DNA of 24,000 bases from Clostridium arbusti SL206 (GTDB taxonomy: Bacteria; Bacillota; Clostridia; Clostridiales; Clostridiaceae). Position numbers and translations under genes: made by a program. Under the pieces are notes generated by a model. The model saw only the letters and a program-made list of their open reading frames with translations. It was not told the origin of the DNA and ran no database searches. Location: positions 2,849 through 26,848 of the forward strand of contig NZ_BAEV01000033.1 in the NCBI RefSeq assembly GCF_000246895.1, in the 5' to 3' direction. Below are positions 1 through 24,000 of the stretch, in pieces; positions within the stretch are counted from its first letter, which is position 1, and each line of letters opens with the position of its first letter.

Positions 1-1061
1 TGTGCAAATCAATCAAGTGCATTTTTAACCGCTGTTAATCCACCCTTTGCAAGTCCTAAAAGTTGATTACTTAAATTAGATCCACTGCTACCCATCTTAG
101 GGAATAAATTAGTAGCTATTTGTATAACATCTTTTATAATTCCTGAAATTATAGGTGATAATGTAGTTATTGCCTGGCTTATAAATTTCATCCCATTGCT
201 AATAATATCTTTAGAGCCATTTATTGCATTTTTTATAGCATCTTGTATCTTTGGCATGTTGCCATTAAACCAAGTAACCGCACTATTAAAAGCTGGTAAT
301 AATAATGTACCAACACTTTGCCCTAATGTAGCAAGATTCAATTGTGCAACTCTAATCTGATTCGCAAAACTTCCACTTAATGTTCTGCCAAAATCCCCTT
401 GAGCATCTTTTGTAACGTTCATAAGATAATTATATCTTAATATAGTTTGTTCTGATTGACTCATTTGAGCATATGGCTTTTTAATACCTTCAGATAATGC
501 ATAAGCTTGTAAATTAGCTACGGACATGTTAATACCAAGTGCTTTTAATGGCTCCGTTTCTCCAGATATACCAGATCTGATTTTTTCCCACATATCAGAA
601 GTACCTACATTATAAAAAGAACTCATGTCTCCTGTTAGTTGTACAAGTTTCTTGGACATATCCCCAGCTTTTTGTTCAGTAACTCCACTAGATTTAAGCA
701 TAGCACCCATGAATCCAACTCATTGTGTACTAGCTGTTTGAGATATACCAGCACTTTTAGCTGTTGTTTGTGTCCAATCTTCAATAGATTTTGCACTATT
801 CTTATATGTCTGTTGGACTACATTCTGTGCTTCCGATAAATTGCTAGCACTTTCAGCCAGTTTATATCCCTGATCTATTAAGGCTTTAAAGCCAAAACCC
901 ACACCTAATACAGCGCCTAATTTAAGAGCAAGACTCCCTATTTTCCCAAAAGAGCTTTCAAATATTCCTGATAGCCCTTTTGCTTTTTCTCCTGCTTTAT
1001 CAAGTTCTGTACTTGCATTATCTTTTAGTAATAATTCTCCAAATATACTAAATAATTTCAT
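1..1061 (-). CDS. tail tape measure protein (partial, runs off the left edge), read with TGA=Trp
   Basis: Track ORFs 720..1061 and 9..710 share a frame and are separated only by TGA at 720-722 (..TASTQ-W-VGFMGAMLK..). ORF 9..710 also ends in TGA (9-11) and stays open to base 1. ATG at 1061 follows a GGGGGTG RBS. The gene lies directly downstream of the chaperone pair and has TMP-like sequence (ALGINMSVANLQAYALSEG..). Confidence 0.8.
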
Positions 1062-1064
1062 TCG

Positions 1065-1412
1065 TTAATCACCCCCTTTTTGATTATTTCTATTTAAGTT
1101 ATCTAATTTTCGTATTCTTTCCGCTTCTGCTAATGCTTCTTCTTTTGTTATTTTTTTAGAACTTTTTGTATCTGTATTTGTATTTTTAAATGCTTTATTT
1201 TTATAATCTTCAAAACTCATATAATTATTTTTATCCATATAAATATGCTCTATATTCCATTGTTCAAAGAGTCTATCTTCAGCGATCTTTATATTCATCT
1301 TTTCAATTAGTTTAAATCCATCAAAAAATCTTAAATTAATTACATAATCAATATTATTGTATCTACTTAAAATTGTATCCATGCACTCATATTCATCAAA
1401 ATCTTCAGGCAC
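1065..1412 (-). CDS. tail assembly chaperone frameshift extension (gpT-like, likely made as a G-T fusion)
   Basis: This ORF is in the -1 frame relative to 1433..1777. The -1 frame is open with no stop from the slippery site at 1460-1466 through the GTG at 1412. It ends in TAA 3 nt before the TMP ATG. Confidence 0.65.
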   Translation of the reverse strand: MPEDFDEYECMDTILSRYNNIDYVINLRFFDGFKLIEKMNIKIAEDRLFEQWNIEHIYMDKNNYMSFEDYKNKAFKNTNTDTKSSKKITKEEALAEAERIRKLDNLNRNNQKGGD

Positions 1413-1432
1413 TATACTATGTGCAAATTGAA

Positions 1433-1777
1433 TTATTTTGCAGAGTTCAGTGCCTGTCCGAAAAAATCAGAAAATTGGTCATCATTAAATATTGAATTTA
1501 CTATCTCCATAACATCTTTTAATTCCATGTTTTCTACTTCACCTATAGACTGGCTACTTATATCTGCAAATAATTTATATATTTCTTGTTGTGCATCTCC
1601 TAAATGTTCTACAAATAACATTGTTAATTCTACTTGTAGATTTTGCTGTGCTTCTTCTTTTTCTTTAGGAGTTTTGTTTGATATATCTGTTATTAATCCT
1701 TTTATTTCTGCCTTTATATTCATTTTTTTAATAATTCTAGTTAATGTAAATAGATCTCCAAATTGTAATTTTCTCAT
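1433..1777 (-). CDS. tail assembly chaperone (gpG-like)
   Basis: 114-aa ORF between the major tail gene and the tape measure gene. It ends in TAA and carries a slippery heptamer near its 3' end. Confidence 0.7.
   Translation of the reverse strand: MRKLQFGDLFTLTRIIKKMNIKAEIKGLITDISNKTPKEKEEAQQNLQVELTMLFVEHLGDAQQEIYKLFADISSQSIGEVENMELKDVMEIVNSIFNDDQFSDFFGQALNSAK
1460..1466 (-). promoter_or_regulatory. -1 programmed ribosomal frameshift slippery heptamer U_UUU_UUC
   Basis: The minus strand reads GAT TTT TTC in the zero frame, giving X_XXY_YYZ = T_TTT_TTC. A -1 shift reads TTT TTT CGG ACA GGC ... ATA GTG CCT GAA, which joins ORF 1065..1412. Confidence 0.65.
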
Positions 1778-1827
1778 ATTATTATTACCTCTTTCTTATA
1801 TTTATTTTTATTTAATTTTCTAACGTA

Positions 1828-1853
1828 AAAAGTACCTATTGAAAGGTACTTTT
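1828..1853 (-). terminator. rho-independent terminator after the major tail gene
   Basis: Perfect 10-bp stem AAAAGTACCT/AGGTACTTTT with a 6-nt loop, starting 3 nt after the TAA at 1856-1858. On the minus strand it is followed by a T-run. Confidence 0.6.
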
Positions 1854-1855
1854 AA

Positions 1856-2752
1856 TTAGTTGTTCGTTACAGTTGTTGTTGGAATTGAATTTAAATACAA
1901 TCCGTTTGTAGATTTAACATTGTTAAGCATATTTGTATTTTTATTATATGCCACTGTAACTATTTGACCACTTGTTGGTACTGTAGTTAATGTTAATTCT
2001 ATTGTATTTTGGTTATTAACCCCTATTTCTGCATCTGTAATAACATCTGTTGTAGCAATACCATCTATTGTATCTGCTACTGTTACCGTAAAGCCATCTT
2101 TTGGTACTGGAGTCGTTACTGTATCTGTAAATGTTAATAATACCTTATTATTAGATATAATAGGTGTTTGGCTTAATGTAAATATAGTTGATACATTTGC
2201 TTTTGGGAACCTAATTTCGAATGGCAATTCATCTATAGCATAAGGATCTATATAAGCTGTAAATGTACATGCTAAAACGTTATCATTATCGTCCTTTGTA
2301 TTTCATTTGAGTCCATCTGTATTTGCTGCATTCTTTAGAATTATAATAACTGGTAATTCACTTCCACTTATTTTTCCCACTAATGCTAGATTTTCTAAAT
2401 AATCCGATTCATCTAAACTAGTTTTACCTGTTATAATATCATAACTTGCATCTGAGTCGGTGTCTATATTTCCTCTCAATAATAATGTTAATATTTCTGC
2501 TGTAACTTCCAATAAATTTGTTGCCAAAGTTACTGTTGTATTCGTAATAATTTCTCCATACTTCATATCACCTTTAATTCCATCGATCTTAATTGTACGG
2601 GTATTACTTTTTACTGTGAACGTATTTCCACCTGCTGTAGCACCAATTAAAGCTTCTTTATCTGTACCATAATTTTTATATAATGCTCCAGCATCTATTA
2701 ATAAATTATTAGGTGTATTGGGTGTAAAACCAACTGTTTTTGTATTATTCAT
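1856..2752 (-). CDS. major tail protein with C-terminal Ig-like domain, read with TGA=Trp
   Basis: Track ORFs 2303..2752 and 1856..2227 are in one frame. Between them the sequence reads TGA (2303-2305) AAT ACA AAG GAC ... GAA TTG CCA TTC with no other stop. The total of 897 nt is 299 codons. The N-terminal part resembles siphovirus major tail proteins. The C-terminal part (FTVTVADTIDG..IELTLTT..GQIVTVAY) resembles a bacterial Ig-like repeat. Confidence 0.75.
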
Positions 2753-2779
2753 ATATTTATTACCTGCCTCTCTATTTCT

Positions 2780-3166
2780 TTATTGATCTCTTTCGTATGT
2801 TTTAACTAAGAAACGTAATTGTCGTCTCTTTAAGTTAACGTCTGGATCATTCAAATTAAGACGACATGGGTTATACCTACTTATTTGTATAAACATATCG
2901 TCTTTTATTATTGTTATTTTATTTAATTTCTTATATATAGCATCTGTTAAAGTCTCAACTTCTTCTATACCATGCTTATTGCTCCATATATCTATGTACA
3001 CTAAGTTATTATTAGAATATTCATTATTGGGAATGGCGCTGTACATTAAAACCGTAGCATATGGATATACTTTAGCTCCATTTTCTGCACTTTCCTTATC
3101 TTGTGGATATTCGTCTGTATAGCATGTAACAATAGGCTGTATTTGTTCGATTAAATAATCATACAT
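2780..3166 (-). CDS. tail completion/terminator-like neck protein (putative)
   Basis: 128-aa ORF immediately upstream of the major tail gene. The call rests on synteny only. Confidence 0.4.
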   Translation of the reverse strand: MYDYLIEQIQPIVTCYTDEYPQDKESAENGAKVYPYATVLMYSAIPNNEYSNNNLVYIDIWSNKHGIEEVETLTDAIYKKLNKITIIKDDMFIQISRYNPCRLNLNDPDVNLKRRQLRFLVKTYERDQ

Positions 3167-3177
3167 ATTTAATATAA

Positions 3178-3519: not shown

Positions 3520-3535
3520 TATATCACCATCCTTT

Positions 3536-3882: not shown

Positions 3883-4578
3883 TTAAATTGCTTTTTTATA
3901 TTTCTCTAAATATTCATCATAATACATCCAAACCATTTTAGTTCTATTAGGTAATCTACCTGCTGTTTTGTATTTACCTTTACAACACTTGGATATACTA
4001 GATTGTGGTATACCATATTTTTTAACAGCTTGATTAATATAACCAAATATTTCACCTGTAGTACTACAAATTATTTTTCTTGCCTGCGGATGATTTGCAC
4101 CACTGAAATTAGCATGACTTTCTCTTAATTTTTTTCTTATCTCTTCTGAAGTATTATAATATTTTTTAGCTTCACTTATTTTTTTCTTCGCTTCCTCTGA
4201 ACAATGATGACCTTTATGTGATTCACTGATCTTATATCTAATTTCATTCATTTCTTGCTCTGTTTTACCAGCATAAGTATTTCCACCATCTCCACCATCA
4301 GCAATATTATAATAATCATCTGATTTAACTGCATTATGTAATTTAATAAATTCAATCTCTAATTTATTTGATTCTTCTCGTGAATAAGTAATTGCAACTA
4401 TATCTCTATGAAAATTTTCTTTACCATATTTTTCTATAGCATGATTTAAATAAATTCCACTACCTAAATAATTTTCTCATTTATTCCTAATGTCAAACAT
4501 CTTTTGACCTATGTATTTTTTACCATTAACCATGTTAGTTGTTATGTATATAAAACCATATGGATTTTCTATCTCCAA
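3883..4578 (-). CDS. free-standing GIY-YIG homing endonuclease (I-TevI-like, NUMOD3 repeats plus C-terminal HTH), read with TGA=Trp
   Basis: A TTG start at 4578 follows a GGGGGTG RBS. The N-terminus, absent from the track, reads LEIENPYGFIYITTNMVNGKKYIGQKMFDIRNK-W-ENYLGSG, with TGA at 4477-4479. It runs in frame into track ORF 3883..4251, which has SEEAKKKISEAKK-type NUMOD3 repeats. The total of 696 nt is 232 codons. Confidence 0.85.
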
Positions 4579-5141: not shown

Positions 5142-6065
5142 TTAAGCTAAAGCTTCTTTAATATTTGCAAAACAATGTGCTAACATATTGTCTGGAATCC
5201 AAAGATCATGATACTTTCTATAGTCTAATTTATATGCTCTTGCACTCTGATTAGTCTCAGGATCAAATATTCTTATAGCATCAGTTTTAGAAACTGCTAT
5301 AGGACAAGTCTGTGCACAAATTAACCAATTAATATTTTTAGCTGCTGCATCTGCTACAAAACCACCTGCTGTTTGTCCTGCTGTCTTACCATCATTGAAT
5401 ACATAAGCTGTCTTTAATCTACTTGAAGGCGCTGGAATAATAGGATTATCGTCTACCATAGTAACTTTAGTAGAAAAAACTCCGCTTGCAAAATCAGTAA
5501 CTTGAAGCTGTTTTGCTATTTCTGTAGAACTTTCAAGAATATTTTTAGTTATTGAACTCATTGTAATAACTAGTGGTACATCACCTACAACATCCTTTAC
5601 TGCTGCAATATCAGCTTTCAATTTAGAAAGTATAGTTTCTGCTGCTGGAAGATAACCACCACTCGCTCTATTTCCTTCTATTGCTAAAGATGCTATTTTA
5701 CTATATCTGTAAGCATCTATCTCAGGAATAACTTGTGTTCTCTGAAACTGTGCCATAACATTACTTGCAGTTACAACAAAGTTACTTTCATCTACTTCAT
5801 TTTCATCTATGGAAAAACTTCTACCTCTATCCTGTGTCATAGTCTTTGTTTCATATTCATGTGTTACATCTCCTGCTGTAAAACCCAGTGCTCTATCATA
5901 ATTTGCTAAACCATCCATACTAATGTTAGGTATCTTTATTTCTTTACCGCCACGATATATAACTTGTCCAGCATTTGCTTCCATTCAGCCACTTGTAGCA
6001 CCTGCCACTGCTTGAGCATCTAATGCGTTTTGAAATAAACTTGCGTATTCTATTGTATTTGCCAT
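5142..6065 (-). CDS. major capsid protein, read with TGA=Trp
   Basis: ATG at 6065 gives MANTIEYASLFQNALDAQAVAGATSG-W-MEANAGQV..., with TGA at 5985-5987, in frame with track ORF 5142..5984. The total of 924 nt is 308 codons. The gene follows the scaffold gene. Confidence 0.85.
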
Positions 6066-6818: not shown

Positions 6819-7724
6819 TTAATCTATTCCCTTTTCTTTTGCCCAAGAATCATAATCTTGATAGTCTATTAATTCTCTACTTTCATTATCAAGTCTTTTA
6901 CTTGGCTTCCAATCATCACTAGGCATATTTATAAGTACACAGCGACATCCTGGATGATTTTCAGGAGGAACTACTTTATCTGGATCATCAATATCATAAA
7001 CGTGCCCATCAAGTGCTGCACATTCTTCACTTGTTTTACCATCTAAAGTAGCAGTATACATTTGTTTCTCTACACCTACATTTCTTCCTAAATCATCTAT
7101 AGCCTGTGATTGAACCCTAGCATTTTCAGTATTAACTAGCCTTTGACTTTCATAAGCACTTACATTAAACTGCTGTCTTATATTTCGTGCTAATTTATCT
7201 AAATGAATATCTCCATTCATGGCATCAACTATTCCCTGTTTAACATTGTCCACTAAATTAGCTTTGTTAGTCCATATTCTATCTGAAAATATCTTACCAT
7301 CAATAGGATTGTTTACTGCTGCGTCAATGTATTCCTTTTTTAAGATACCAAAGTTAAGCACATCCTTCATACCGCTATCAAGTATATAAGCATTGTGATA
7401 ATAAACCATAGGATAAGTGTCAGCTAATATATTAATTACCTGGTCCACTTCTTGCTGACCTAAATTTTTACCCATATCTTTAAGCTTTTTATCTATATCA
7501 GCTAATAAGACTTTTTTCTGCTGTAGTGTTACATTTAATAATCCATTTTCAGCATTTTTTATATACAGCATACCTAAATATTGATGCAATTCTTCTAAAT
7601 TAGCTTTTTGATTAGAATATACACTCTTCATTTGTTCATCAGCATATTTTTCAGCATCTAACTTAATTTGTTCAATCATCTTTTGATACATAGGATTTAA
7701 AGTATTAACCATCTGTACCACCAC
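6819..7724 (-). CDS. minor head/morphogenesis protein (SPP1 gp7 / Mu F-like)
   Basis: The C-terminal motifs NTENARVQSQ and TATLDGKTSEECAALDGHVY..PPENHPGCRCVL are typical of the Mu F / gp7 family. The start overlaps the portal 3' end. Confidence 0.8.
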   Translation of the reverse strand: MVVQMVNTLNPMYQKMIEQIKLDAEKYADEQMKSVYSNQKANLEELHQYLGMLYIKNAENGLLNVTLQQKKVLLADIDKKLKDMGKNLGQQEVDQVINILADTYPMVYYHNAYILDSGMKDVLNFGILKKEYIDAAVNNPIDGKIFSDRIWTNKANLVDNVKQGIVDAMNGDIHLDKLARNIRQQFNVSAYESQRLVNTENARVQSQAIDDLGRNVGVEKQMYTATLDGKTSEECAALDGHVYDIDDPDKVVPPENHPGCRCVLINMPSDDWKPSKRLDNESRELIDYQDYDSWAKEKGID

Positions 7725-9015
7725 TTAATAAGTCTGCTCCTATAGAATTAGCTTTATTTTCTTCCTGCAATTGCTTCATTTCAGCACCTGGATTAGAAAC
7801 AAAACTTAATTGACTTAATCCAGTTTTAATAGATAGCTTTCCATTAAGTTGAGATATTATTTGAGCCATCATTAAATCATCACTTGGTATGTTTGGAGTA
7901 AACTTAGAATCTATATCTTTCCACTCATAAGACTTGTTTTCTTTAATTTTAAGATATTCAAATAAGAATTGTAATCTTAATTTAATAGCATCAGCTAAAG
8001 CCTGAATATTATCACTGCATTTCTGCTCTAAGCTTATAAGTCTATTCTTTAAAGCTAAACTAGATGTATTACTAGCTAATTTCTCATTGTGGTTTATATG
8101 GGAACTTAATTGATATATTTTATCTTCCTGGGTAGATAATGTATTTTGTATAAAGCTATCATTTATATTTTTTATTACCCATGCCGCATCTGAATCCTTA
8201 TTAGGCATATTTAAGATACCTAATTCTTTCATTTTATCTAAATCTGTTTTTCCATTTTCATCTTTCGTTTCATCATCTAATTCACAACCTGTTATTTTTA
8301 AATAGGCATTACGAAAATCAGATATTTCGTTACTTATGTCACTTAAATTAGTTTCATAAGCATCTTGAAGTCCTTTTATCTTTTTATATAAACTCTCATA
8401 ATAAGAACCTATTTTCACTATACTTACTGGCACTTTAGAGAATATATTTTCATCTACTTTAGAACCCTTTATAAGTTCAAAACTTGAGCCTACACAAGTA
8501 TAGTGTGTTATATCTTCGTTAGTATAAACATCAGCATATAATGTCTTTGATTCATCAAACTTCTTACTAAAAAATCTTATAAATAATTCTATATTGCCAA
8601 AATCATCTTGTAAAATATAACTATCTCTTGGAGTACATATAAGACTATTAAATAATCCATCTGAATCTATATAATATAATTCATAGGCTTCATTATAAAT
8701 CAAAGCTTCTTTACACAACTCTTTATCATGATTAGTATTTCAATGCTTAAAATTAAGTCTTAAATCTTCTATAACATTACTGTCATTACTGTGGCTTGAA
8801 TAAGTAATTTTATTTCCACAACAATAAGAAGCTTCTTCATTAACAAACTTCTGAATAAAGTTACATGAGAGTTTATTATTACTTCTCTTAGTAACCATTT
8901 GATAATGTAGCATAGCATCTGTATATCCATCATAATATCTTCTCATGGTTTCATATCTATGTAACTTTAAATCAAAATCAGTTTTACATTGTGTTAGTAA
9001 ATTATTATTAATCAA
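7705..9015 (-). CDS. portal protein (SPP1 gp6-like), read with TGA=Trp
   Basis: Track ORFs 8740..9015 and 7705..8718 are in one frame. The junction reads ..LNFKH-W(TGA 8740-8742)-NTNHDKELCKEALIYNEAYELYY... The total of 1311 nt is 437 codons. A TTG start follows an AGGAGG RBS. Confidence 0.85.
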
Positions 9016-9053: not shown

Positions 9054-10793
9054 CTATAATCCTAGCTTTCTTCTATCTAAAATCTTTATTTTTTGTATAA
9101 CTTCAATTTCTTTAATATCAATTGTTGATTGTGCTACTGCATCTGGAGCATCATCATGTTCTGAATACTCCTGTCCACAAAAACTCATTATTTGCTCTAT
9201 AAAATCTGTATCATCTTGATTAAATATAATTCTGCCATTATTTACATCACTTATGATAGTAGATATTTTTTCATCTTTATTTTTCTTCTGCATTCTGTTT
9301 ATAAATGTGATATTTCTATATTTTAATTCATCATCTTTATTAATTAATTCTTTAATCTTTAATACATCAGCACTCATATATAGATTTTTTTCTATAGATA
9401 CATGAGTTATTTCGGGGAAATCCCTTAAAAGCTTTATAACATGATTACAAAAATCATCAAAACCTACTTTTAATAATTCACCTTTTTTAATATAAAGAAA
9501 ATCATTGTCAGCTAAACCACCAACTGCAAAAGCTGAATAATCGGCTTTATTGCTTATACTATTAGCTGGATCACAAACAAGGATATTTTTAATAAAATTA
9601 TGGCCTTGAATTTCTTCTAAAGATTGAGTTCTATTAGATATGAACCACTTTTCACCTATTTTTGATGCATCGTTCATCATTTCCTGTTTAAATGCCACTG
9701 GATTATTATAGTAATCTATAGCTAAATCTAAACAATCATATTTATCGGGCCATAAGGTTTTATATTGCATCTCTTTTTCGTGGTGATAATAAAATTCTTT
9801 GGCATCTGCAACACTATCCTTAGATTTATCATCAAAATAAAGCTGTCTGAATTTCTCTCAGATACCTTCATGGAAATATTCATCAACATTAAAGTTAACT
9901 ACTCTTTTAACTATATGTTTATAATCCTTATTCTTAAGTAATCTACTCATAAAACAATCTCTATGTAAAATAGTTCCAAGTACAATAAACTTTGTAGCCA
10001 TTTTTATCTTATGTCCATCACGGACAACTGCTTTATCTCCAGCATATTGAGAATCTTCTACCCATGTATTATACTTTTTATCTCTTGCTTCTGCTGTAAT
10101 ACAATCACTTTTTGATTGATAATCGTCTGCAATAATTACGGAAGGTCTATAACCGGAATATTTCTTACCTCTCATACTAGATGTACTAGAAATAGCTTGT
10201 ATTTTCGTTTTATTAGATAATTCCAATTCTAATTTATTTACTGTATACCTTTTTGGCTCGATAAGTTTACCAAAAGATTTTATTATGTATTTATTTTCTT
10301 CAAAGGCTTGTCTAGTTTGTGCTATAAACTCTGTAGCATCTTGCTCTGTTTTTCCTGCAACCAATGTATATATAGACTTCTTATAACAATGTAATCATAC
10401 AGATATTGCAAAATCACAGACCGTTGTCTTACTACTCCCTCTAGGCATAATTAATTCTAATTTATCTATAGTATCCTTTAAAAATGCATTTTCTAATTGT
10501 TCCCAAATCTCATAATGTACTGGTGCTAATATTCTAGCTGTATTATCTTCTTTAGGTAGAAATGTATCTTGAAGGTAATATAAACAGAAAAATTCTATAG
10601 AATATGCTCCAAGTTGTGCTGCTAAAGAATTTATTCCAAATAAGTTGTCCGCATGGGACGATACTATTTCTTCTGCTTTCATTTCTGCATCTGATTGATT
10701 AAATCCACTTGATATTAATTGCTTAGTTGTATATTTATATAGCAGATATCTGTTTTTTTCGTCTTCTGTGCTAAAATTTATATTATCTATCAA
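9054..10793 (-). CDS. terL: terminase large subunit, read with TGA=Trp
   Basis: Three track ORFs (10395..10793, 9858..10364, 9054..9770) share one frame. They are joined by TGA at 10395-10397 (..PRGSSKTTVCDFAISV-W-LHCYKKS..) and TGA at 9858-9860 (..FHEGI-W-EKFRQLYFDD..). There is a Walker A-like GSSKT motif. The total of 1740 nt is 580 codons. Confidence 0.9.
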
Positions 10794-11003: not shown

Positions 11004-11585
11004 TTATATTCTAAAACTCTTCAATGCATCTTCATATTCATCATCAACTATATGTGTATATATCATTGTAGTAGATAAATCACTATGTCCTAATGCCTTC
11101 TGTACTAATCTTATGTTCTTTGTATCTCTTAATAAATCTGTAGCAAATGAATGTCTTAACGTGTGAGGCGATATGGTCTTTGTTATACCTGCTTTACCTG
11201 CATAATTAACAACCATTTCTCTTACATCTCTATCAACTAATTGTTTGCCAGTTCTATTTGTAAATACATGGGATACTTTACCTAATTGTTCCCCCTGTCT
11301 TTGTTTCCAGTCCTGTAATAATTGTAGGGTATTTTCTCCAAGCCATAGTATTCTATCTTTAGATCCTTTACCATCTACTACTTTTAATTGTCCAGTAAGT
11401 AAATTAATATCCTGCCATTTTAAATTAATCATTTCAGATAATCTTAATCCTACTGCAAGAAATAACTGTATCATCATCTTATTTCTATGACTATTAAAAT
11501 ATCTTACATTAAATATATTTATCAATTGTTCTTGCTCTTCTTTAGTCAAGAACTCTGGTATTTTTTTATTGCTCATAACTATCAC
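11004..11585 (-). CDS. small tyrosine recombinase (XerC/D-integrase catalytic domain only, 193 aa)
   Basis: The catalytic residue pattern is present: GLRLSE (Arg), HTLRHSFAT (H-x-x-R) and LGHSDLSTTMIYTHI (His...Tyr). The ORF has no in-frame TGA. Confidence 0.8.
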   Translation of the reverse strand: MIVMSNKKIPEFLTKEEQEQLINIFNVRYFNSHRNKMMIQLFLAVGLRLSEMINLKWQDINLLTGQLKVVDGKGSKDRILWLGENTLQLLQDWKQRQGEQLGKVSHVFTNRTGKQLVDRDVREMVVNYAGKAGITKTISPHTLRHSFATDLLRDTKNIRLVQKALGHSDLSTTMIYTHIVDDEYEDALKSFRI

Positions 11586-11727: not shown

Positions 11728-12132
11728 TTACTCAACCTTCTTTAACTTATACTTTTCAAACTCATTATGAATAATTTTAGGATCTATGCTTTCATCTTTC
11801 TTATCTGATATATCCTGTGTCTTAGATGTTGGCAATCCATATATCCTATTCAATAAATAAATTAGTATATCTTTCTTTGTATTTTCTGACTTACTTGTCA
11901 ATGCTATCTTTTCTAATTCACTAATATAGATATCAACTTTCGACATTATTTTTTGTTCGCCTTGTTTTTTGAGTTGTGTCACGTACTCGTCTACTGTTGC
12001 CTTCCATTCTGGTCTTTTCATATCGTTATATATTGTCTGTCTAGCAACTCCACATAACTTAGCAATATCAGTAATTTCTGTACCTTGGGCATACAACTCT
12101 GCTTCCTTTTGTTGTCTCTCATTTAATGGCAT
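11728..12132 (-). CDS. terminase small subunit-like HTH protein (phBC6A51-type HTH)
   Basis: The N-terminus LNERQQKEAELYAQGTEITDIAKLCGVARQTIYN is an HTH. The gene is the first of the packaging block and has a GGAGGTGG RBS. Confidence 0.5.
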   Translation of the reverse strand: MPLNERQQKEAELYAQGTEITDIAKLCGVARQTIYNDMKRPEWKATVDEYVTQLKKQGEQKIMSKVDIYISELEKIALTSKSENTKKDILIYLLNRIYGLPTSKTQDISDKKDESIDPKIIHNEFEKYKLKKVE

Positions 12133-13940: not shown

Positions 13941-13969
13941 ATTATATAATTATAATGCATTTTTGTCAA
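13941..13969 (-). promoter_or_regulatory. consensus sigma-70/sigma-A promoter driving RNA A
   Basis: The minus strand reads TTGACA (13969-13964), exactly 17 nt, then TATAAT (13946-13941). Confidence 0.6.
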
Positions 13970-14498: not shown

Positions 14499-15331
14499 TT
14501 ATTCTGTTAATCCCATTCTCTCTAGTAATAAATCTATTTCTTCCTTTTCTTGTGGTATGTCATAATTACTTATAATCAACTCACCATAATGTTTCCTACT
14601 ATCCTTTGAAGCACTATAAAATACTTCATGCTCCATAATATTAAAATCTTTAAATAGCTCTCTTATATATTCATCATTATTAATTGTATATAAAAATTTG
14701 CCTTTAGCATTTCTACAACATTCTGCTAGTAATCTATACTGTTCATCTGTAAATTTACCTACTGCATATTGCTTTGTATTTCTATAAGGACTATCAACAA
14801 AGAAAAATGTATCTGGTTTATCGTATATTCTAAATATATCCTCAAAAGATTTATTCTCTATAACTACAGTTTGTAGTCTCATATATGCTGCAGTAATATC
14901 TTCTTCTATTTTATCAATTTTTAAACCATTTCTACTTTCTGCACCCGTACCAAATATAGGATTACGCATATCACTGGCAAATCCTGCCTTAACTAAATAA
15001 TAAAATATATGTGCTCGCTGTATAGCATCCTCATATATTCCTTCTTTATATATCTGTTTATATTGATTAAATAGTTCTCTACTAACTAGAGTATAGTCAA
15101 AACTATTTATAAATTGGTCTGGAGCATTCTTTACTACACTCCAAAAATTCATTAAGTTACTATCAAAATCGTTTAAAATTTCTACTTTAGAAGACTCTTT
15201 ACCGAATAATAAATGACCTGCCCCCCAAATACTTCAACATATGTTTTATGCTCTGGAATTAATGGCAACAGCTTATGCACCATTCTTGATTTGCCTCCAA
15301 CTCAACTTAAAGGACTTTTTATTTTAGACAT
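14499..15331 (-). CDS. Dam-type (D12 class) N6-adenine DNA methyltransferase with an in-frame TGA=Trp, interrupted by a frameshift in a G6 tract
   Basis: ATG at 15331 gives MSKIKSPLS-W(TGA 15302-15304)-VGGKSRMVHKLLPLIPEHKTYVEVFGG. The frame then breaks at GGGGGG (plus C6, 15221-15226). One extra G would give ..FGGAGHLLFGKESSKVEILNDFDSNLMNFW.., joining track ORF 14499..15152. That ORF has a catalytic DSPY motif in VDSPYRN. The length of 833 nt is not a multiple of 3. Confidence 0.8.
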
Positions 15332-15981: not shown

Positions 15982-16302
15982 TTACTTATGTAACAAACTC
16001 AATAACAATAATATAATTGACATAGCTATAGATATTCCTATTCCAGCTTGCCACTGCCAACTAGCATTATCTTGTTTACCACTATCCATTAAATAACCAT
16101 CAAATTTATCCGCTCATTTATTAATTGTATCTGTTAATCTCTCCATACTTTTATTTAAAGTTTTAATTGTTGCGTCTTGTGTTGCTGAGGTCACCTTTAT
16201 ATCACTAATATCATCCTCATTCTTTGTAATTCTTTTATCGTGATCATCTAGTCTTTTATCATGATTTTCTAATTTCTCTAATATAACATCTTCTTGCTGC
16301 AT
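15982..16302 (-). CDS. XhlA-like (hemolysin XhlA family) coiled-coil protein with a C-terminal membrane anchor, read with TGA=Trp
   Basis: ATG at 16302 follows a GAAAGGTAGG RBS and gives MQQEDVILEKLENHDKRLDDHDKRITKNEDD...TDTINK-W(TGA 16114-16116)-ADKFDGYLMDSGKQDNASWQWQAGIGISIAMSIILLLLSLLHK, ending in TAA. The transmembrane tail appears only if TGA is read through. Confidence 0.55.
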
Positions 16303-16559: not shown

Positions 16560-17234
16560 CTAGTCTGGGAATTTTACCACCTGAATATGGTCACCTTTGA
16601 GGGGGAGCGTTATAATTTCTCTTAAAAGTTGATCTGCAAAATCTTCTTGATTATCGTCTTTAACATTACTAATATCTTTATTTATAATATAATATCCGTA
16701 TTCATCAACAAATAATTTCCTTTGAGATAGATTATATTGTAACTTCTCCAGGTCATTATACAGTTCATATGTATTCATATTATATAGGTGTACAAATACA
16801 TAATCATCATTTTTTATATGTATACCTATAGGTCAATGTAAGGCTGCCTTTTTACCTTTACATCTATCATCTATATAGTCTATCTCAAAATCAATTATGT
16901 CATCTAATTTATCCAATTTATCACATATATATCAGACTATATCATCCTTAGCGGAAGGTGTATTATATAACTTATACCCAAGCTTTCTATATTTATCTAT
17001 TTCCTGTAATTCCCTGAATTTTGATTCCTTATTACTGGAGCATTCATCAATGACCTCAAATTTAAAATTATCTGCTCCATATTCATCTCAATCTATCTGT
17101 AAATCTTTATTTATATGTTTACCATTATTTAATTCACTAATATGAGATTCTCACCGATGCTTAATATCTAAACTTCTTCCTATGTATATCTTATTTGTAT
17201 CTTGTAAATTTGTAATCTTATAAATACCTATCAT
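16560..17234 (-). CDS. second free-standing GIY-YIG endonuclease, read with TGA=Trp (4 in-frame TGA)
   Basis: ATG at 17234 follows a GGGGAGG RBS and gives MIGIYKITNLQDTNKIYIGRSLDIKHR-W-ESHISELNNGKHINKDLQID-W-DEYGADNFKFEVIDEC...YNTPSAKDDIV-W-YICDK...AALH-W-PIGIH... It runs into track ORF 16560..16778. The TGA codons are at 17151-17153, 17088-17090, 16932-16934 and 16833-16835. The total of 675 nt is 225 codons. Confidence 0.85.
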
Positions 17235-17932: not shown

Positions 17933-17937
17933 AAAAT

Positions 17938-19437
17938 TTATTTATCTACATTATATATAATTTTACCTACTATCCAGTAAGATTTTTCCCTTTTAACTTT
18001 TCCATTTTCGTCTCTATATGTTTTTGTTTTAGGTACGTCAATAACATATGGTATACCCTGCTCTTTAAAACTAGCATTAAAACTATTAGGACTTTTAAGT
18101 TGTTTTCTATCTTGCCTTAAGTCAATAAATTCAATTAATTCCTTTTGCTTATCTTTATATAATTTTTGTCCAGTAATTTCTTTGAGTAATTCTTCTAAAC
18201 TCATGATTTCTGTAGTTGTCTCAAGTTCTAAAATAAAAGTTTTATCAACGCTTAATGCTGTTGCAATCATATTTTTATAATTAAAATTATTTTTCTTACT
18301 AAGAATTGCATTATATAAAATTAAATCTTCCTGATATTTTGTATACATACACTCATTAACAACCTTTTTTATACTATTATCAGTATTTAAAATATCATCA
18401 ATAATCCTAGTATCTGTAAATCTTTCATTTTTAAATTTATGCTTTACATATTCCTCTTGTCCATGATCTAATAAATAATCTGCTCTTTCAAGAGAATTCG
18501 TAATTTTACTTTTAAATCCATTGATTCTCCTATTATCTTTATAGTTATAGAAATATAAATTTATTGATTCACCTTCACCTATCCGTTTTCTACCCAAACA
18601 CTGAATAAATTCATCTGGATCAAATATATCTATTATAATATGCTTTACTGGAGTACCTTCTTTTACATTTACACCATTATCTAAAGCTGTAGTTATACAT
18701 AGTAAATGGTTTTTAAACTCTCCGTTTTCTATTATATTAGTTCTTTCTTCCTCATTCTCAGTATCTTTTACATATTTATCGTAATATTGATTATACTGAC
18801 TACAGATAAAAGCACCGTTATGTTTCTTACTTATTTCTAATGCTCTCTTGGCGCTGGTAAATAATAAGATCTGTTCCTCTTGGGGAATATCTTCTATAAT
18901 ACTATCTATACTTTCATATGTACTAAAGGCTGTTATATTTCTTATGTAACTATAATCTGTAGATAATTCATATTTGTAATCTATAATAATATCGTTACTT
19001 TTAAAATAATTCTCTAATATCCTTGGAGTAGCAGTTAATAGTATTTTGCATATAGTATTATCTTTTATCATTCTTTTAAAAGATAAATCTGTTTTTATAT
19101 TGAACGTTGAATCTGAAAAATAGTATTGACTCTCATCAAATATTACGTAATCATAGTTATCAAAAGATATATTATTCAATATAAACGTTTCTATCTTCTG
19201 ATAATTCATCACGGTTATATTACTAAATTCCCCTATATCTCTTTTAACTTGATCTTTTAAAGCATTTCTATTAGTTAAATAAAGAATATTACTTCCTTGT
19301 ATGCTGCAATATGTATTTAAAATGTTTTTAATAAAATAACTTTTTCCCCTGCCCGTACCTGCTTTAATTAAAATTAAATTTCCTTTGCTCCATGATTTAT
19401 ATTCTTCTTGTATAACATCTGTAATTCATTTTTTCAT
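17938..19437 (-). CDS. SF2 (DEAD/DEAH-like) helicase, read with TGA=Trp
   Basis: ATG at 19437 gives MKK-W(TGA 19426-19428)-ITDVIQEEYKSWSKGNLILIKAGTGRGKSYF (Walker A) ..., in frame with track ORF 17938..19212. That ORF has VIFDESQ (motif II) and QCLGRKRI (motif VI-like). The total of 1500 nt is 500 codons. Confidence 0.85.
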
Positions 19438-20533: not shown

Positions 20534-20540
20534 CTTTTTA

Positions 20541-20708: not shown

Positions 20709-20806
20709 CTAATTGTTATCTCCTTAATTTATATGTATCATCATTACCCTGCTTGAAATTCCACAGTGCTCACAAATTTGAAGTGTTTAAAAATATTGAT
20801 TTATGC

Positions 20807-21007
20807 TTACTCTAAATACTTGACATCTTGGAGTAATTTAACTACTTTTTCAAAATTCTTTGTTCTCATATCTCTATCACCTAATATAAAATGTGATATT
20901 GTACTTTTAGCTAAATCCAATTGCTTAGCTATATGTATATATTTAATGCCTTTATCTGTGCAATAATTTATAAGTTGTTTTCGTACTCCTTCCTGACCAT
21001 AATCCAT
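20807..21007 (-). CDS. XRE/Cro-like HTH transcriptional regulator
   Basis: 66-aa ORF with an HTH segment (IKYIHIAKQLDLAKSTISHFILG) and an AAAGGAGA RBS. Confidence 0.6.
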   Translation of the reverse strand: MDYGQEGVRKQLINYCTDKGIKYIHIAKQLDLAKSTISHFILGDRDMRTKNFEKVVKLLQDVKYLE

Positions 21008-21262: not shown

Positions 21263-21282
21263 GGGGAGAAATAAATCTCCTC
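21263..21282. terminator. stem-loop terminator after the RNA polymerase gene (possibly bidirectional)
   Basis: GGGGAGA-AATAAA-TCTCCTC forms 7 bp including one G-U pair. It is T-rich on both sides and lies about 115 nt downstream of the TAA at 21398-21400. Confidence 0.45.
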
Positions 21283-21397
21283 TTTCCTTATACCCACCAT
21301 TTTTGAGACATTTTGACGATAACATTCTTATATTCGTTTTAGAACTATTTTTAATTTACATAATTTACAAGTCTGCACGTAAATTACAAAAACGCTC

Positions 21398-23836
21398 TTA
21401 TTTTTCAGTTTCCAATTTTTTACTATCACCTTCTTTAAATACTGATAGAAATATATCTTTATCCAATTTATACAATATATTTAATAACTCTAATTTATAC
21501 TTAAAATCAAATTTCTCTTCTAATATATCCATAATAATGCTATGTATTGTTTCTTTATTCATTATAAACTTGCTTAAATTGTCAAGATAAATAGATCGTA
21601 CTTTACTTATCTTTCTATATTTTTCCTTTTGTTCTTCTTTATCATTATTGTCTACTTTATTATTATATGTGCTCTGTATCTCCTTAAATTTATTAATCAT
21701 CTTTTTAGCAATCTCTATTATATTTTTCCTTTTTCTACTTTCAGCTTTACTGTCTATGTTATCAATGTAATTTTTAATAGGTTTAGCATGTGTAGTATCT
21801 GCTGGCTTAATTCCATTCATTATTTCTTGTAAATAATCCATTGGGCAATTGTACTTTATGAACCTAATTTTTTTATCTTTATCTTTCTTTTTACCTTTCT
21901 TTTTATTTTGACTTACATATTTAAAAAATAAAGGTTTAGATACATGTAATAGATTACTTTTGTTCAAGCTATCAATTTGCTCTTTTATATTTACATCATA
22001 CATTCTCTTAGCATTGTCTATACAAATCTCTGATAAGATGGTACATATATCAATTTTCTCTAATAACTCATTCAATCTAGTATCATTTTTATCTTTACTA
22101 TATAAATCCCAGTAAGTTGACATAAATAATTGTCCTAAATTTACTACAGTACCTATATTTTTCTGACTCTCTGCTAGTATATTATCTATTACTGCCATAT
22201 CTTTAGTACCTACAGTATAAGAATTAATGTTTTTATTTACTCCATTCTCACAAACTCTATATTGGCTCTCTGGACTTTTAATATAACATTTTCTTGCTCT
22301 AGATAATAAAGTATCATTATTTATTAATAGTAAATTATCTGAATCACAATCCTGGCCTGATAATATTCTATTTATTGGAAAATTTATAGCATTTGTGTAA
22401 ATGATGTTGTTAGTGAGATTAAAATATTTAGATATAAAATCATTATCTTTATTCTTAAGGATTAGTACGTTGCTTTGGCTTGTGTGTGGATTTCTAAATG
22501 AAACATACTCATTATTAAAAGGGTGTAGTTTTGTATAAGCTTCATTTTCCTTTAAGATCATTCTATCTTGCCATTTATCATAATCAAGGATTAACTCACC
22601 TTTTTTATTTCTATTTGTTGGTAATTGCTTCACGACATGATATAATAATTCCTTGCCATTTTGAACAATTGTTGTATAGTCCCCGGGTAATCTTATTTTC
22701 CCATGTTTTATATATTTAACATAATTATGGATATCTGATTTTCTTTTCTTTTTAAATAAGTCTGTATATATAAGTTGGTTATTATGTTTATATAGATCTA
22801 CTATCATCTCATTAGTATTGTTATCATTTACGTTTTTAAATAAATAATCTATGTACACATCATTATTATTTTTTAACTTTTGTATGTAATTTACTTCAAA
22901 TTCACTTAATTTCTTCATATCTTCTTGATCTAAAGGAATACTATTTAATTGCTGATATGACATTTGGTTTATTATATTTCCTTCTACATCATACCCTCTT
23001 TGGCTCTCATGTTCTACCTTCACGATACCGAAAATATGATCTTCATCTTCAATTTTTCTTTTCCAGTGATCCCACATCTTGGGTTTACTACCTTTTACCT
23101 TATTAAATTTTAAGGCCTTAAGGGAATTTGGTGTGGTTATCATAAGTATATCTTTAGCTAAAATTGTATCTCCAAACATATTAGTTAATTCCCATGTATC
23201 ATAATCTATATGATGTTCTGTTGCATAATCCTTTAAAAATTGCTGTATATTAGTATTAAAAACTGCACATTTAAACATATGCTGCCTTAATAGTAAGAAT
23301 CCAGTATTTTCATATTTTCCTACAAATTGACTCGAATCTAAAAGACCTTCGCCATCGAAAATATCATTTGTCATCGTATAATCATTTTGTTGCTTACTTA
23401 CTAATAATACTGGTTTCTTATCTTTTCCCTCTGTATCTAAATTTTCTTGTGTGTTTTCAGCTTCGGCAGAAATCTGCACAACCTGAGGATTATCATTCTT
23501 TTCTTTTTCCTTTTCCACTATATTACAATTAATTTTAAATACAGATTGTACATCGTCTACAAGCAAAATATTTTTAGGATCTATTTTAATAGTGCCCTCG
23601 ATACTACTGCTTACCAAGCTTTCGTAGGTCAGAAGACCTGGATAATCTATATCATTTTTACCTTCTAAAGTCATTCCTAATCTTTGCCATTTTATCATCT
23701 TATCTCTAAGTTGCTTCCTTATAAATAACACCTGGCCTGTCCGGCTCTTACTCGAGGTTCGACTATAGACTACATAATCAATTGTTTTTTTACCTATAAT
23801 AAGAGAAAAGCCTTCTGTGTACAACTTTTTTCTCAA
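21398..23836 (-). CDS. YonO / cellular-RdRP-like single-subunit (double-psi beta-barrel) RNA polymerase, putative
   Basis: 812-aa ORF. It contains VSFRNPHTSQSNVLILKN...NIIYTNAINFPINRILSGQDCDSDNLLLINND. This parallels the RdRP/QDE-1 catalytic region (..RxPxxxxxD(I/V)....(I/V)xF....LSGGDxDGDxxxVxWD). The N-terminal YSRTSSKSRTGQVLF resembles the RdRP S-S-x-x-R-x-x-x-x-F element. The frame stays open upstream to a TAA at 23981-23983 with no canonical start, so the N-terminus is uncertain. There is no in-frame TGA. Confidence 0.6.
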   Translation of the reverse strand: MRKKLYTEGFSLIIGKKTIDYVVYSRTSSKSRTGQVLFIRKQLRDKMIKWQRLGMTLEGKNDIDYPGLLTYESLVSSSIEGTIKIDPKNILLVDDVQSVFKINCNIVEKEKEKNDNPQVVQISAEAENTQENLDTEGKDKKPVLLVSKQQNDYTMTNDIFDGEGLLDSSQFVGKYENTGFLLLRQHMFKCAVFNTNIQQFLKDYATEHHIDYDTWELTNMFGDTILAKDILMITTPNSLKALKFNKVKGSKPKMWDHWKRKIEDEDHIFGIVKVEHESQRGYDVEGNIINQMSYQQLNSIPLDQEDMKKLSEFEVNYIQKLKNNNDVYIDYLFKNVNDNNTNEMIVDLYKHNNQLIYTDLFKKKRKSDIHNYVKYIKHGKIRLPGDYTTIVQNGKELLYHVVKQLPTNRNKKGELILDYDKWQDRMILKENEAYTKLHPFNNEYVSFRNPHTSQSNVLILKNKDNDFISKYFNLTNNIIYTNAINFPINRILSGQDCDSDNLLLINNDTLLSRARKCYIKSPESQYRVCENGVNKNINSYTVGTKDMAVIDNILAESQKNIGTVVNLGQLFMSTYWDLYSKDKNDTRLNELLEKIDICTILSEICIDNAKRMYDVNIKEQIDSLNKSNLLHVSKPLFFKYVSQNKKKGKKKDKDKKIRFIKYNCPMDYLQEIMNGIKPADTTHAKPIKNYIDNIDSKAESRKRKNIIEIAKKMINKFKEIQSTYNNKVDNNDKEEQKEKYRKISKVRSIYLDNLSKFIMNKETIHSIIMDILEEKFDFKYKLELLNILYKLDKDIFLSVFKEGDSKKLETEK

Positions 23837-24000
23837 ATCTTCTTGATTAATCTCTTGATAACTTGGATCTTGCGTTTTGCCAACGAGAAAATCTGTATAT
23901 TCTTTTAATTTTTTATCATAATCTTGATCTTTCTCTAGCAGTTGACCGTCAACCTTTTGTTTTTCTAATTCTAATCTTTTTTATTTGTATATTCAATTAT

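What the first reader, a model, noticed from the sequence alone, without database searches (positions are those of the whole stretch)
1..24000. Mixed and uneven TGA/TGG usage argues against a classical Mollicute-style genome and raises the host-versus-phage code question
By my hand count of W in the track, about 46 Trp codons are TGG and 15 are TGA, so TGA is roughly a quarter. AT-rich code-4 Mollicutes are known to prefer TGA strongly.

Strong AGGAGG-type RBSs and an XhlA-like lysis-associated membrane protein also suggest a walled Firmicute-type host.

Usage is uneven across genes:
- GIY-YIG #2 (16560..17234) uses TGA for all 4 of its Trp codons and has no TGG, which may indicate horizontal origin from a more deeply recoded genome.
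- The 812-aa RNA polymerase, the recombinase, the TerS-like gene, gp7 and the scaffold gene have only TGG.
- The helicase carries TGA at codon 4, so it cannot be made without TGA decoding.

This pattern fits phage-specific recoding with partial temporal structure. It is not proof of that.
Basis: partly seen in the sequence, partly recalled or inferred. Interest (0 to 1): 0.65.

Follow-up and report, generated by a model that had tools for sequence, protein, structure and literature searches.

The report
Clostridium-type phage newly reading TGA as tryptophan
This is part of a Clostridium-type phage that has only recently begun using the stop codon TGA for tryptophan while its closest relatives still use the standard code: a known phenomenon, caught here at an unusually early stage.

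Summary
TGA means Trp. Nine TGA sites align with TGG in standard-code relatives, and two more match invariant Trp residues in solved Dam and I-TevI structures.

The window is a siphovirus of a family found in Clostridium and other spore-forming Firmicutes. The closest relatives (TerL 85–87% identical, one in a Clostridium MAG) and 66 others use the standard code. Only a sister strain (~92% nt) shares the recoding. TGA and TGG swap at orthologous sites between the two strains, and every change that can be polarised is a TGG→TGA gain.

TGA's 25% share is far below other A-ending codons here (71–87%) and below a Mycoplasma phage (87%). This argues against a long-standing code-4 host and for recent, phage-lineage-specific recoding.

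"Temporal structure" is not significant within the window (module p=0.77). Only GIY-YIG #2 (4/4 TGA) is an outlier, and a homolog elsewhere is also TGA-rich.

No suppressor tRNA lies in about 34 kb examined, and the host was not directly identified. This is a new member of a known kind (Borges et al.).

The parts
1..24000 (-). 24-kb segment of a siphovirus-type phage genome (source contig 36,288 bp). All genes are on the minus strand and are read with TGA = Trp.
   Evidence: GC is about 28%.
21398..24000 (-). YonO-like single-subunit RNA polymerase gene: 6 TGG, 0 TGA. The N-terminus lies beyond 24000. An A6 run at 23982..23977 breaks the frame, where the sister strain has A7.
   Evidence: Homologs are 850-970 aa, and several carry PF05183 or are named 'RNA dependent RNA polymerase'. 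Frameshift.
17938..19437 (-). DEAD/ResIII helicase. TGA at codon 4 (19428..19426), 2 TGG.
   Evidence: Pfam. Start and RBS. Codon 4 aligns with TGG in L002.
16560..17234 (-). GIY-YIG homing-endonuclease-type gene #2. All 4 Trp codons are TGA (17153..17151, 17090..17088, 16934..16932, 16835..16833).
   Evidence: Pfam GIY-YIG. W28 matches the Trp of I-TevI's R-W motif (1mk0). Homologs. Outlier test.
15982..16302 (-). Coiled-coil plus transmembrane protein, weakly XhlA-like. TGA at codon 63 (16116..16114), 2 TGG.
   Evidence: Pfam XhlA E=3.4e-5, below the gathering cut-off. The sister-strain copy has 3 TGA.
14499..15331 (-). D12-class (Dam) adenine methyltransferase. TGA at codon 10 (15304..15302) is the kWxGGK tryptophan. 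The gene needs a -1 shift at the G6 run 15226..15221.
   Evidence: Pfam full-length match after joining the two frames. PDB 2dpm and 2g1p alignments. TGG at this site in L001. The same G6 site occurs in L001.
11004..11576 (-). Small tyrosine recombinase, 3 TGG and 0 TGA. It is 97% identical to the copy in the Clostridium sp. MAG prophage (L002).
11728..12132 (-). Terminase small subunit (1 TGG).
   Evidence: phrog_2538, E=1e-30.
9054..10793 (-). Terminase large subunit. TGA at codons 133 (10397..10395) and 312 (9860..9858), 4 TGG.
   Evidence: In a 21-sequence alignment, codon 133 aligns with W in 18 of 20 homologs and codon 312 with a nearly invariant W. Both are TGG in L001 and L002 and TGA in the sister strain L005.
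7705..9015 (-). SPP1-type portal protein. TGA at codon 92 (8742..8740), 2 TGG.
   Evidence: Pfam E=3e-98. TGG in L001 and L002.
5142..6065 (-). Major capsid protein. TGA at codon 27 (5987..5985), 2 TGG. The same site is TGG in the sister strain.
   Evidence: phrog_422, E=2e-109..
3883..4578 (-). GIY-YIG endonuclease #1 (SegE-like), inside a 0.8-kb insertion absent from the sister strain. TGA at codon 34 (4479..4477), 1 TGG.
   Evidence: Pfam. Insertion.
1856..2752 (-). Major tail protein with a C-terminal Ig-like extension. TGA at codon 150 (2305..2303).
   Evidence: phrog_885. TGG in L001.
3..1061 (-). N-terminal 353 codons of the tape-measure protein. TGA at codons 114 (722..720) and 351 (11..9), 3 TGG. 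Codon 114 is TGG in the sister strain.

Best explanation
The window is about two thirds of the genome of a temperate-type siphovirus belonging to a family of prophages and phage-plasmids of Clostridium and related spore-forming Firmicutes.

Shown:
- One narrow sub-lineage (this contig plus a sister strain from two sibling metagenomes) reads TGA as tryptophan and has no TGA stops.
- Its nearest relatives use the standard code.
- The change is recent and still in progress. Ancestral TGG codons are being converted to TGA one by one under the genome's A/T mutation pressure, but more slowly than other synonymous G-to-A changes.

Inferred:
- The host is a standard-code Clostridium-type bacterium.
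- During infection UGA is decoded by a Trp-tRNA able to read UGA in competition with host RF2. The most likely source is a phage-borne tRNA-Trp-derived opal suppressor encoded in the ~12 kb of the source contig outside the window (only ~4.3 kb of that, on the upstream side, is represented by the sister strain's contigs). A host tRNA-Trp variant is the alternative.
- Imperfect decoding would keep TGA rare.
- GIY-YIG #2 is a mobile gene imported from a genome that has used TGA = Trp for longer.
For: TGA = Trp:
- Nine window TGA codons align with TGG in standard-code orthologs: TerL 133 and 312, portal 92, MCP 27, Dam 10, tail tube 150, TMP 114 and 351, helicase 4.
- In TerL, W aligns at codon 133 in 18 of 20 homologs and is nearly invariant at codon 312.
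- Dam W10 and GIY-YIG W28 match Trp residues in solved structures.

Lineage-specific and recent:
- L001 and L002 (TerL 87% and 85% identical) gain nothing under code 4 and use TGA as a stop.
- Of 68 IMG/VR relatives, only the two ~96%-identical loci carry in-frame TGA in TerL or portal.
- A further standard-code relative (L172) occurs in the same metagenome as the recoded sister strain.
- Window and sister strain differ TGA/TGG at 5 Trp sites (2 TGA in the window, 3 TGA in L005). The 4 with an outgroup are all TGG-to-TGA gains.

Not at equilibrium:
- TGA is 24.6% of Trp codons, against 71-87% A-ending for Lys, Glu, Gln, AGR and TTR.
- Where L001 has a G-ending codon, the window has A in 55-73% of those pairs but only 24% for Trp.
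- Since the split from the sister strain the figures are 14-37% against 7-10%.
- A true code-4 baseline, phage phiMFV1, has 87% TGA and in-frame TGA in 11 of 14 genes. The window has it in 10 of 35 genes.
- Borges et al. (10.1101/2021.08.26.457843) report 26-71% of genes with in-frame stops for recoded phages of standard-code hosts, and ~90% for phages of recoded hosts.

Host type:
- All named relatives are in Clostridium, Desulfosporosinus, Desulfotomaculum, Bacillus, Paenibacillus and similar genera.
- The closest cultured relative infects C. perfringens.
- The recombinase is 97% identical to one in a Clostridium MAG prophage.
- Two genome-wide screens report no UGA = Trp in Clostridia (PMC8629427; PMC13092985).

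Other:
- A stop that is TGA in L001 is TAA in the window and TAG in the sister strain.
- The only tRNA-Trp in about 100 family loci is a tRNA-Trp(CCA) in L172. One anticodon change would make it an opal suppressor.
Against: - No tRNA, RF1 or TrpRS was found in the window, in the 28 kb of sister-strain contigs, or with permissive Rfam scans. None of the unknown proteins looks translation-related.
- The host was not identified directly. There are no host flanks and no CRISPR match, and the source contig could not be retrieved.
- In-frame TGA occurs in replication genes as early as helicase codon 4, so a simple 'late genes only' switch does not fit.
- The L172 tRNA has a mismatched acceptor-stem top and sits at a contig end, so it may be an attachment-site copy of a host tRNA.
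- GIY-YIG #2's TGA-rich relatives imply that a more deeply recoded gene pool exists somewhere, and that could be a code-4 host.
Confidence: 0.65

Rival explanations
1. Host-level code 4. The phage infects a bacterium that itself reads UGA as Trp, either a Mollicute or an undiscovered recoded Firmicute. It jumped there recently from standard-code Clostridium hosts and is now drifting toward TGA.
For: - There are no TGA stops, and TGA occurs in early replication genes (helicase codon 4) as well as late ones.
- No phage suppressor tRNA was found in about 34 kb.
- Only gains of TGA are seen.
- GIY-YIG #2 and its L181 homolog are 80-100% TGA, which implies a deeper recoded gene pool.
Against: - All relatives, including ones 85-87% identical in TerL and 97% in the recombinase, are in standard-code walled Firmicutes.
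- A standard-code relative co-occurs in the same metagenome.
- TGA share (25%) and the fraction of genes with TGA (29%) are far below a Mycoplasma phage (87% and 79%).
- TGG-to-TGA is slower than other synonymous G-to-A changes, which is unexpected if UGA were a fully normal codon.
- The sister strain's earliest block has 0 of 17 TGA.
- No code-4 Clostridia are known from two large screens.
Confidence: 0.14
2. The host is standard-code but there is no phage-encoded factor. The host's own tRNA-Trp(CCA) reads UGA appreciably, for example a variant with a weakened top anticodon-stem pair as described in some Clostridia. The phage simply tolerates and exploits that leakiness.
For: - No decoding gene was found in the sequence examined.
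- The low TGA share and the slow TGG-to-TGA rate fit inefficient decoding.
Against: - Two TGA codons in TerL and four in GIY-YIG #2 would compound losses if read-through were only a few percent.
- Co-occurring relatives in presumably similar hosts have not accumulated any TGA.
- That paper notes RF2 still wins at UGA in such genomes.
Confidence: 0.15
3. Artefact or decay. The TGA codons are nonsense mutations in a degenerating prophage, or sequencing and assembly errors, and are not translated.
For: Two homopolymer frameshifts (Dam G6, RNAP A6) show that the sequence is not pristine.
Against: - Every TGA that can be tested sits at a Trp position.
- There are no in-frame TAA or TAG codons.
- The same TGA sites recur in independent assemblies from other samples.
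- Proteins stay 89-99% conserved between the two strains across the TGA sites.
- The Dam G6 site is conserved in a standard-code relative.
Confidence: 0.02

Closest known systems
TGA-recoded (code 4) phages of standard-code Firmicutes described by Borges et al. (bioRxiv 10.1101/2021.08.26.457843; clades such as Agate, Jade and Sapphire)
   Same: - In-frame TGA aligns with Trp.
- Close standard-code relatives exist (they report >90% ANI pairs).
- Only a minority of genes carry the recoded codon.
- Hosts are predicted to be standard-code Firmicutes.
- A suppressor tRNA was detectable in only about 35% of their code-4 genomes.
   Different: - Those TGA clades are mostly large (127-200 kb) gut phages with recoding concentrated in structural and lysis genes.
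- This one is a small (contig 36 kb) cI/cro-type siphovirus of a Clostridium prophage and phage-plasmid family.
- TGA is spread evenly over the replication and structural modules.
- It is at a very early stage (25% of Trp codons).
- It carries a YonO-like RNAP.
Small TAG-recoded temperate phages Garnet and Topaz (same paper)
   Same: They have small genomes (22-34 kb), a temperate lifestyle, and a standard-code-compatible lysogeny or early gene set proposed to act as a switch.
   Different: They recode TAG to Gln, not TGA to Trp. They were shown integrated in standard-code hosts, whereas no integration junction is available here.
Phages of true code-4 hosts, e.g. Mycoplasma phage phiMFV1 (NC_005964)
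   Same: Low GC, TGA = Trp, and only TAA or TAG stops.
   Different: phiMFV1 has 87% TGA among Trp codons and in-frame TGA in 11 of 14 genes. It shares no relatives with this family, and its host has no cell wall.
Clostridium phage vB_CpeS-1181 (MW478292) and the ~50-kb C. perfringens and C. estertheticum phage-plasmids
   Same: They are the closest cultured or complete relatives by TerL (58-59%), with the same head-module type and a Clostridium host.
   Different: They use the standard code, their replication modules are different mosaics, and they are distant.

Membership tests
Code-4 (TGA=Trp) recoded phage of a standard-code host | In-frame TGA in conserved genes at positions occupied by Trp in homologs | tested here: met
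   At least 13 of the 15 TGA sites were checked individually and all align with Trp.
Code-4 (TGA=Trp) recoded phage of a standard-code host | TGA is not used as a terminator, and genes have normal length under code 4 | tested here: met
   All genes end in TAA or TAG and reach ortholog length. A stop that is TGA in L001 is TAA or TAG in the recoded strains.
Code-4 (TGA=Trp) recoded phage of a standard-code host | The host uses the standard code | tested here: inconclusive
   The evidence is indirect. All relatives lie in standard-code Firmicutes and no code-4 Clostridia are known. No host junction or CRISPR link was obtained.
Code-4 (TGA=Trp) recoded phage of a standard-code host | Phage-encoded code-change machinery (suppressor tRNA-UCA, RF1, TrpRS). 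This is frequent in the family but not universal. | tested here: inconclusive
   None was found in the window (24 kb) or the sister-strain contigs (28 kb). About 12 kb of the source contig was not available.
Code-4 (TGA=Trp) recoded phage of a standard-code host | Earliest-expressed or lysogeny genes remain compatible with the standard code | tested here: inconclusive
   Window: 0 of 9 TGA upstream of the helicase, p=0.10, and the run is not unusual. Sister strain: 0 of 17, p=0.007, chosen post hoc.
Phage of a code-4 (Mollicute-type) host | TGA is the dominant Trp codon, in line with the genome's A/T bias | tested here: not met
   24.6% TGA, against 71-87% A-ending in the other A/G codon pairs. 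phiMFV1 has 87%.
Phage of a code-4 (Mollicute-type) host | Most genes contain in-frame TGA | tested here: not met
   10 of 35 genes here, against 11 of 14 in phiMFV1.
Phage of a code-4 (Mollicute-type) host | Relatives or prophage copies occur in code-4 genomes | tested here: not met
   No Mollicute or other code-4 organism appears among the hits.
Code 25 (TGA=Gly) phage of Absconditabacteria or Gracilibacteria | TGA aligns with Gly | tested here: not met
   TGA aligns with Trp at every site tested.
Selenocysteine or isolated programmed read-through | TGA at Cys or Sec positions, in only a few genes | tested here: not met
   There are 15 sites in 10 unrelated genes, all aligning with Trp where an alignment could be made. 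Rfam found no SECIS-type element.

The most novel reading that the evidence does not exclude
The recoded clade has no canonical tRNA(UCA) suppressor and instead depends on a tRNA-Trp(CCA) that 'superwobbles' onto UGA. This could be a phage-borne copy like the odd tRNA-Trp(CCA) in the co-occurring relative L172 (27-43 G.U, mismatched acceptor top), or the host's own weakened-anticodon-stem tRNA-Trp. That would make it the first phage-host system in which incipient stop-codon reassignment rests on near-cognate decoding in competition with RF2. A second possibility that the evidence does not exclude is that the host is an undiscovered UGA=Trp lineage within the Clostridia.
Probability: 0.2. Interest if true: 0.8.

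Novelty: new member of a known kind. Interest (0 to 1): 0.55.

Why it matters
Stop-codon recoding in phages is established, but how it starts is not. Here a recoded strain, a sister strain and several standard-code relatives (76–87% identical, one from the same sample) sit side by side. Individual TGG→TGA gains can be counted, and their rate compared with that of ordinary synonymous changes.

The family has cultured members and culturable Clostridium hosts. Questions such as 'what decodes UGA, and how well, at the onset of a code change?' could therefore be tested with reporters and proteomics.

There is also a practical point. Standard-code gene calling breaks 10 of the 35 genes in this window, including terminase, portal and capsid.

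Tried and rejected
- **Source contig.** Exact-protein look-ups for the scaffold protein and P0121 were not on record. The RNAP protein scan of GTDB genomes found nothing.
- **IMG/VR RNAP scan.** Nothing was found.
- **Walking downstream.** An exact 31-mer from the end of the sister contig re-found only that contig.
- **Distal-tail protein query.** This found a different, standard-code relative (L172/L175), not the recoded clade.
- **GenBank phages.** Megablast of the whole window found no match.
- **Literature.** A search for the sample accessions returned nothing.
- **ORF-length ratio (code 4 over code 11).** It was too crude as a recoding screen, since the window itself scores only 1.07. I replaced it with in-frame TGA counts in TerL and portal.
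- **Group I intron around GIY-YIG #2.** Rfam finds none.
- **Skipping-rope RNA as a cryptic tRNA.** Rejected. It is a three-hairpin fold, not a cloverleaf.
- **L172 tRNA against phage records.** The BLAST showed only generic tRNA-Trp similarity.
- **Dam_C frame error.** My first coordinates for Dam_C gave 13 spurious TGA codons. This was corrected.

Full report
**What is in the window**

All genes lie on the minus strand of a 28% GC sequence. Read from 24000 down to 1, the order is:
- a YonO-like single-subunit RNA polymerase gene;
- small early ORFs;
- a DEAD/ResIII helicase;
- a GIY-YIG endonuclease (#2);
- a weakly XhlA-like membrane protein;
- a Dam-type methyltransferase;
- several unknown ORFs;
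- TerS and a small tyrosine recombinase;
- TerL, an SPP1-type portal, a MuF-like head protein, a scaffold protein and the major capsid protein;
- a second GIY-YIG endonuclease (#1);
- head–tail connectors, the major tail protein and the tail chaperones;
- the first 353 codons of the tape-measure protein.

Under table 11 several of these genes are broken. Under code 4 they fuse into full-length genes: TerL 579 aa, portal 436, MCP 307, helicase 499, tail tube 298.

**Checking the observation**

My curated gene set gives exactly 15 TGA and 46 TGG codons, or 24.6% TGA. The per-gene statements are also correct:
- GIY-YIG #2 has 4 TGA and 0 TGG.
- The RNAP, recombinase, TerS, MuF and scaffold genes have TGG only.
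- The helicase has TGA at codon 4 from ATG 19437.

Shine-Dalgarno motifs of at least 5 nt precede 20 of 33 starts, against 4.9% of random positions. The XhlA assignment is below Pfam's threshold.

**TGA means tryptophan**

- Nine window TGA codons align with TGG in orthologs from standard-code relatives: TerL 133 and 312, portal 92, MCP 27, Dam 10, tail tube 150, TMP 114 and 351, helicase 4.
- In a 21-sequence TerL alignment, codon 133 aligns with W in 18 of 20 homologs (Y in the other 2). Codon 312 aligns with a nearly invariant W.
- Dam codon 10 is the Trp of the kWxGGK motif in DpnM and E. coli Dam.
- GIY-YIG #2 codon 28 is the Trp of I-TevI's R-W motif.
- Three of the four GIY-YIG #2 TGAs are TGG in a homolog from a standard-code phage.

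Glycine (code 25), selenocysteine and decay are therefore excluded.

**Who the relatives are**

- The TerL family sits in Clostridium, Desulfosporosinus, Desulfotomaculum, Bacillus and Priestia genomes, and in ~50-kb C. perfringens and C. estertheticum phage-plasmids.
- The closest cultured phage is C. perfringens phage vB_CpeS-1181, with TerL 58% identical.
- The RNAP family is likewise confined to Clostridium, Paenibacillus and Bacillus genomes.
- The nearest relatives are L001 (TerL 87%) and L002, from a Clostridium sp. MAG (TerL 85%, recombinase 97%). Both use the standard code: code 4 adds nothing to their ORFs, and TGA terminates some of their genes.
- Among 68 IMG/VR relatives, only two loci carry in-frame TGA in TerL or portal. 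Both are ~96% identical in TerL, come from sibling metagenomes 3300042922 and 3300042934, and have the TGAs at the same sites as the window.
- A further standard-code relative (L172/L175, 76–78% nt) occurs in the same metagenome as the recoded sister strain.

**Recoding is recent and ongoing**

- The window and its sister strain (~92% nt) share 10 TGA sites and differ at 5 (2 TGA in the window, 3 TGA in L005).
- Where an outgroup exists, every difference is a TGG→TGA gain: MCP 27 and TMP 114 in the window, gp10-like 74 and chaperone-T 52 in the sister.
- TGA is far from compositional equilibrium. The A-ending share is 71–87% for Lys, Glu, Gln, AGR and TTR but 24.6% for Trp.
- Where L001 has a G-ending codon, the window has A in 55–73% of those pairs but only 24% for Trp.
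- Since the split from the sister strain the figures are 14–37% against 7–10%.
- A genuine code-4 baseline, Mycoplasma phage phiMFV1, has 87% TGA, matching its 90% AAA share, with in-frame TGA in 11 of 14 genes. Here 10 of 35 genes carry one.
- Borges et al. report about 90% of genes with the recoded codon in phages of recoded hosts, against 26–71% in recoded phages of standard-code hosts.
- Two genome-wide screens list no UGA=Trp lineage in the Clostridia.

Together these points argue for phage-lineage-specific recoding in a standard-code, walled Firmicute host, probably Clostridium. This remains an inference, because I obtained no host junction or CRISPR link.

**Unevenness and temporal structure**

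- Within the window, usage is statistically homogeneous: gene heterogeneity p=0.33 and replication versus structural module p=0.77.
- The only outlier is GIY-YIG #2, with permutation p≈0.003. Without it, p=0.92.
- The 9-TGG stretch upstream of the helicase is not unusual, because an 11-TGG run occurs elsewhere (P=0.46; Fisher p=0.10).
- Contig L154 adds the sister strain's upstream genes and gives 0 of 17 TGA against 17 of 53 in the rest (p=0.007). That is suggestive of a standard-code-compatible immediate-early block ending at a terminator after the RNAP gene. The block was chosen after seeing the data, and the two strains are not independent.

**GIY-YIG #2**

- Its GC3 is typical of the window, so base composition does not mark it as foreign.
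- It is mobile in type, and all 4 TGAs are conserved in the sister strain.
- A 70%-identical homolog sits in an unrelated 1.4-kb contig with different flanks, and has 4 TGA and 1 TGG.

**Mechanism**

- No tRNA, RF1 or TrpRS is present in the window or in 28 kb of sister-strain sequence, even with permissive Rfam scans. None of the unknown proteins looks translation-related.
- One lead stands out. The only tRNA-Trp in about 100 family loci is a tRNA-Trp(CCA) in L172. It has its own promoter, a G·U top anticodon-stem pair and two mismatched acceptor pairs.
- A C34→U change would turn it into an opal suppressor. It could instead be an attachment-site copy of a host tRNA.
- Recent work shows that weakened-stem tRNA-Trp(CCA) variants exist in some Clostridia and promote UGA read-through in E. 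coli. Host-assisted decoding is therefore a live alternative.
- The slower-than-neutral TGG→TGA rate fits decoding that is still imperfect.

**Verdict**

The main interpretation (not Mollicute-like; phage-specific recoding) is supported by new comparative evidence. The temporal-structure idea is at best weakly supported. This is a new member of the known class of TGA-recoded phages (Borges et al.). It is notable for being small, Clostridium-associated, evenly recoded across modules and at an early stage, with standard-code siblings available for comparison.

Noticed in passing
window 13833-13917 (minus strand); promoter at 13969..13941: A strong match to the skipping-rope RNA motif (RF02924, 64.6 bits against a gathering score of 36.7). 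A perfect TTGACA-17-TATAAT promoter lies immediately upstream, in an intergenic gap of the replication module. The function of this RNA family is unknown.
   Followed up: partly
window 15221-15226 (G6 run) within the Dam gene 15331..14499; also L001 5147-5160: The D12 adenine methyltransferase is split over two frames at TTTGGGGGGCAGG, and a -1 shift restores the full-length enzyme. The identical G6 site is present in the standard-code relative L001. This points to a conserved slippery or phase-variable tract rather than a sequencing error.
   Followed up: partly
window 23977-23982 and beyond 24000: The YonO-like RNAP ORF is interrupted by an A6 run, where the sister strain has A7. Homologs are 850-970 aa, so the true N-terminus lies outside the window and the '812-aa' ORF is a truncated view. 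It could be a real frameshift, slippage or a homopolymer error.
   Followed up: partly
window 3844-4662: GIY-YIG endonuclease #1 (true start TTG 4578, which includes the GIY motif) lies in a 0.8-kb insertion between the connector gene and the next head-tail gene. The insertion is absent from the sister strain, so this is a recently mobile homing-endonuclease gene.
   Followed up: partly
window 19712-20807: Four small ORFs (55-90 aa, including an excisionase/HTH-like one) are absent from the sister strain's otherwise collinear contig L154.
   Followed up: no
L172 15153-15227: A standard-code relative from the same metagenome as the recoded sister strain carries a tRNA-Trp(CCA). It has its own extended -10 promoter, two mismatched pairs at the top of the acceptor stem and a G.U pair at the top of the anticodon stem. 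It is the only tRNA-Trp among about 100 family loci.
   Followed up: partly
L005 18746-19134: In the sister strain the tape-measure gene is followed by a terminator-like hairpin and a promoter plus a small two-TM protein gene, not by the distal-tail (Dit) gene seen in relatives. This could be a moron insertion, a deletion of the tail tip genes or an assembly join.
   Followed up: no
window 1856-2752: The major tail protein is about 110 aa longer than in relatives (298 against 186-188 aa). The extra part is a Thr/Val-rich C-terminal Ig-like extension.
   Followed up: no
window 4640-4642; L001 14659-14661: The head-tail connector gene ends with TGA in the standard-code relative L001. At the same codon position the window has TAA and the sister strain has TAG.
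   Followed up: yes
window 1433-1777 and 1065-1484: These overlapping tail-chaperone ORFs have the usual G/GT arrangement, which suggests a programmed frameshift. TGA triplets in the overlap upstream of the second ORF's first start codon were not counted as coding.
   Followed up: no
L178 (MW478292) 839-3793: In the cultured relative vB_CpeS-1181 the large terminase is annotated in two pieces separated by an unrelated 780-bp ORF. This suggests an intron or homing-endonuclease insertion in TerL.
   Followed up: no
L181 1400-1456: The ENA contig carrying the TGA-rich GIY-YIG homolog ends in Nextera adapter sequence (CTGTCTCTTATACACATCT...), so its last ~50 bases are not biological.
   Followed up: yes
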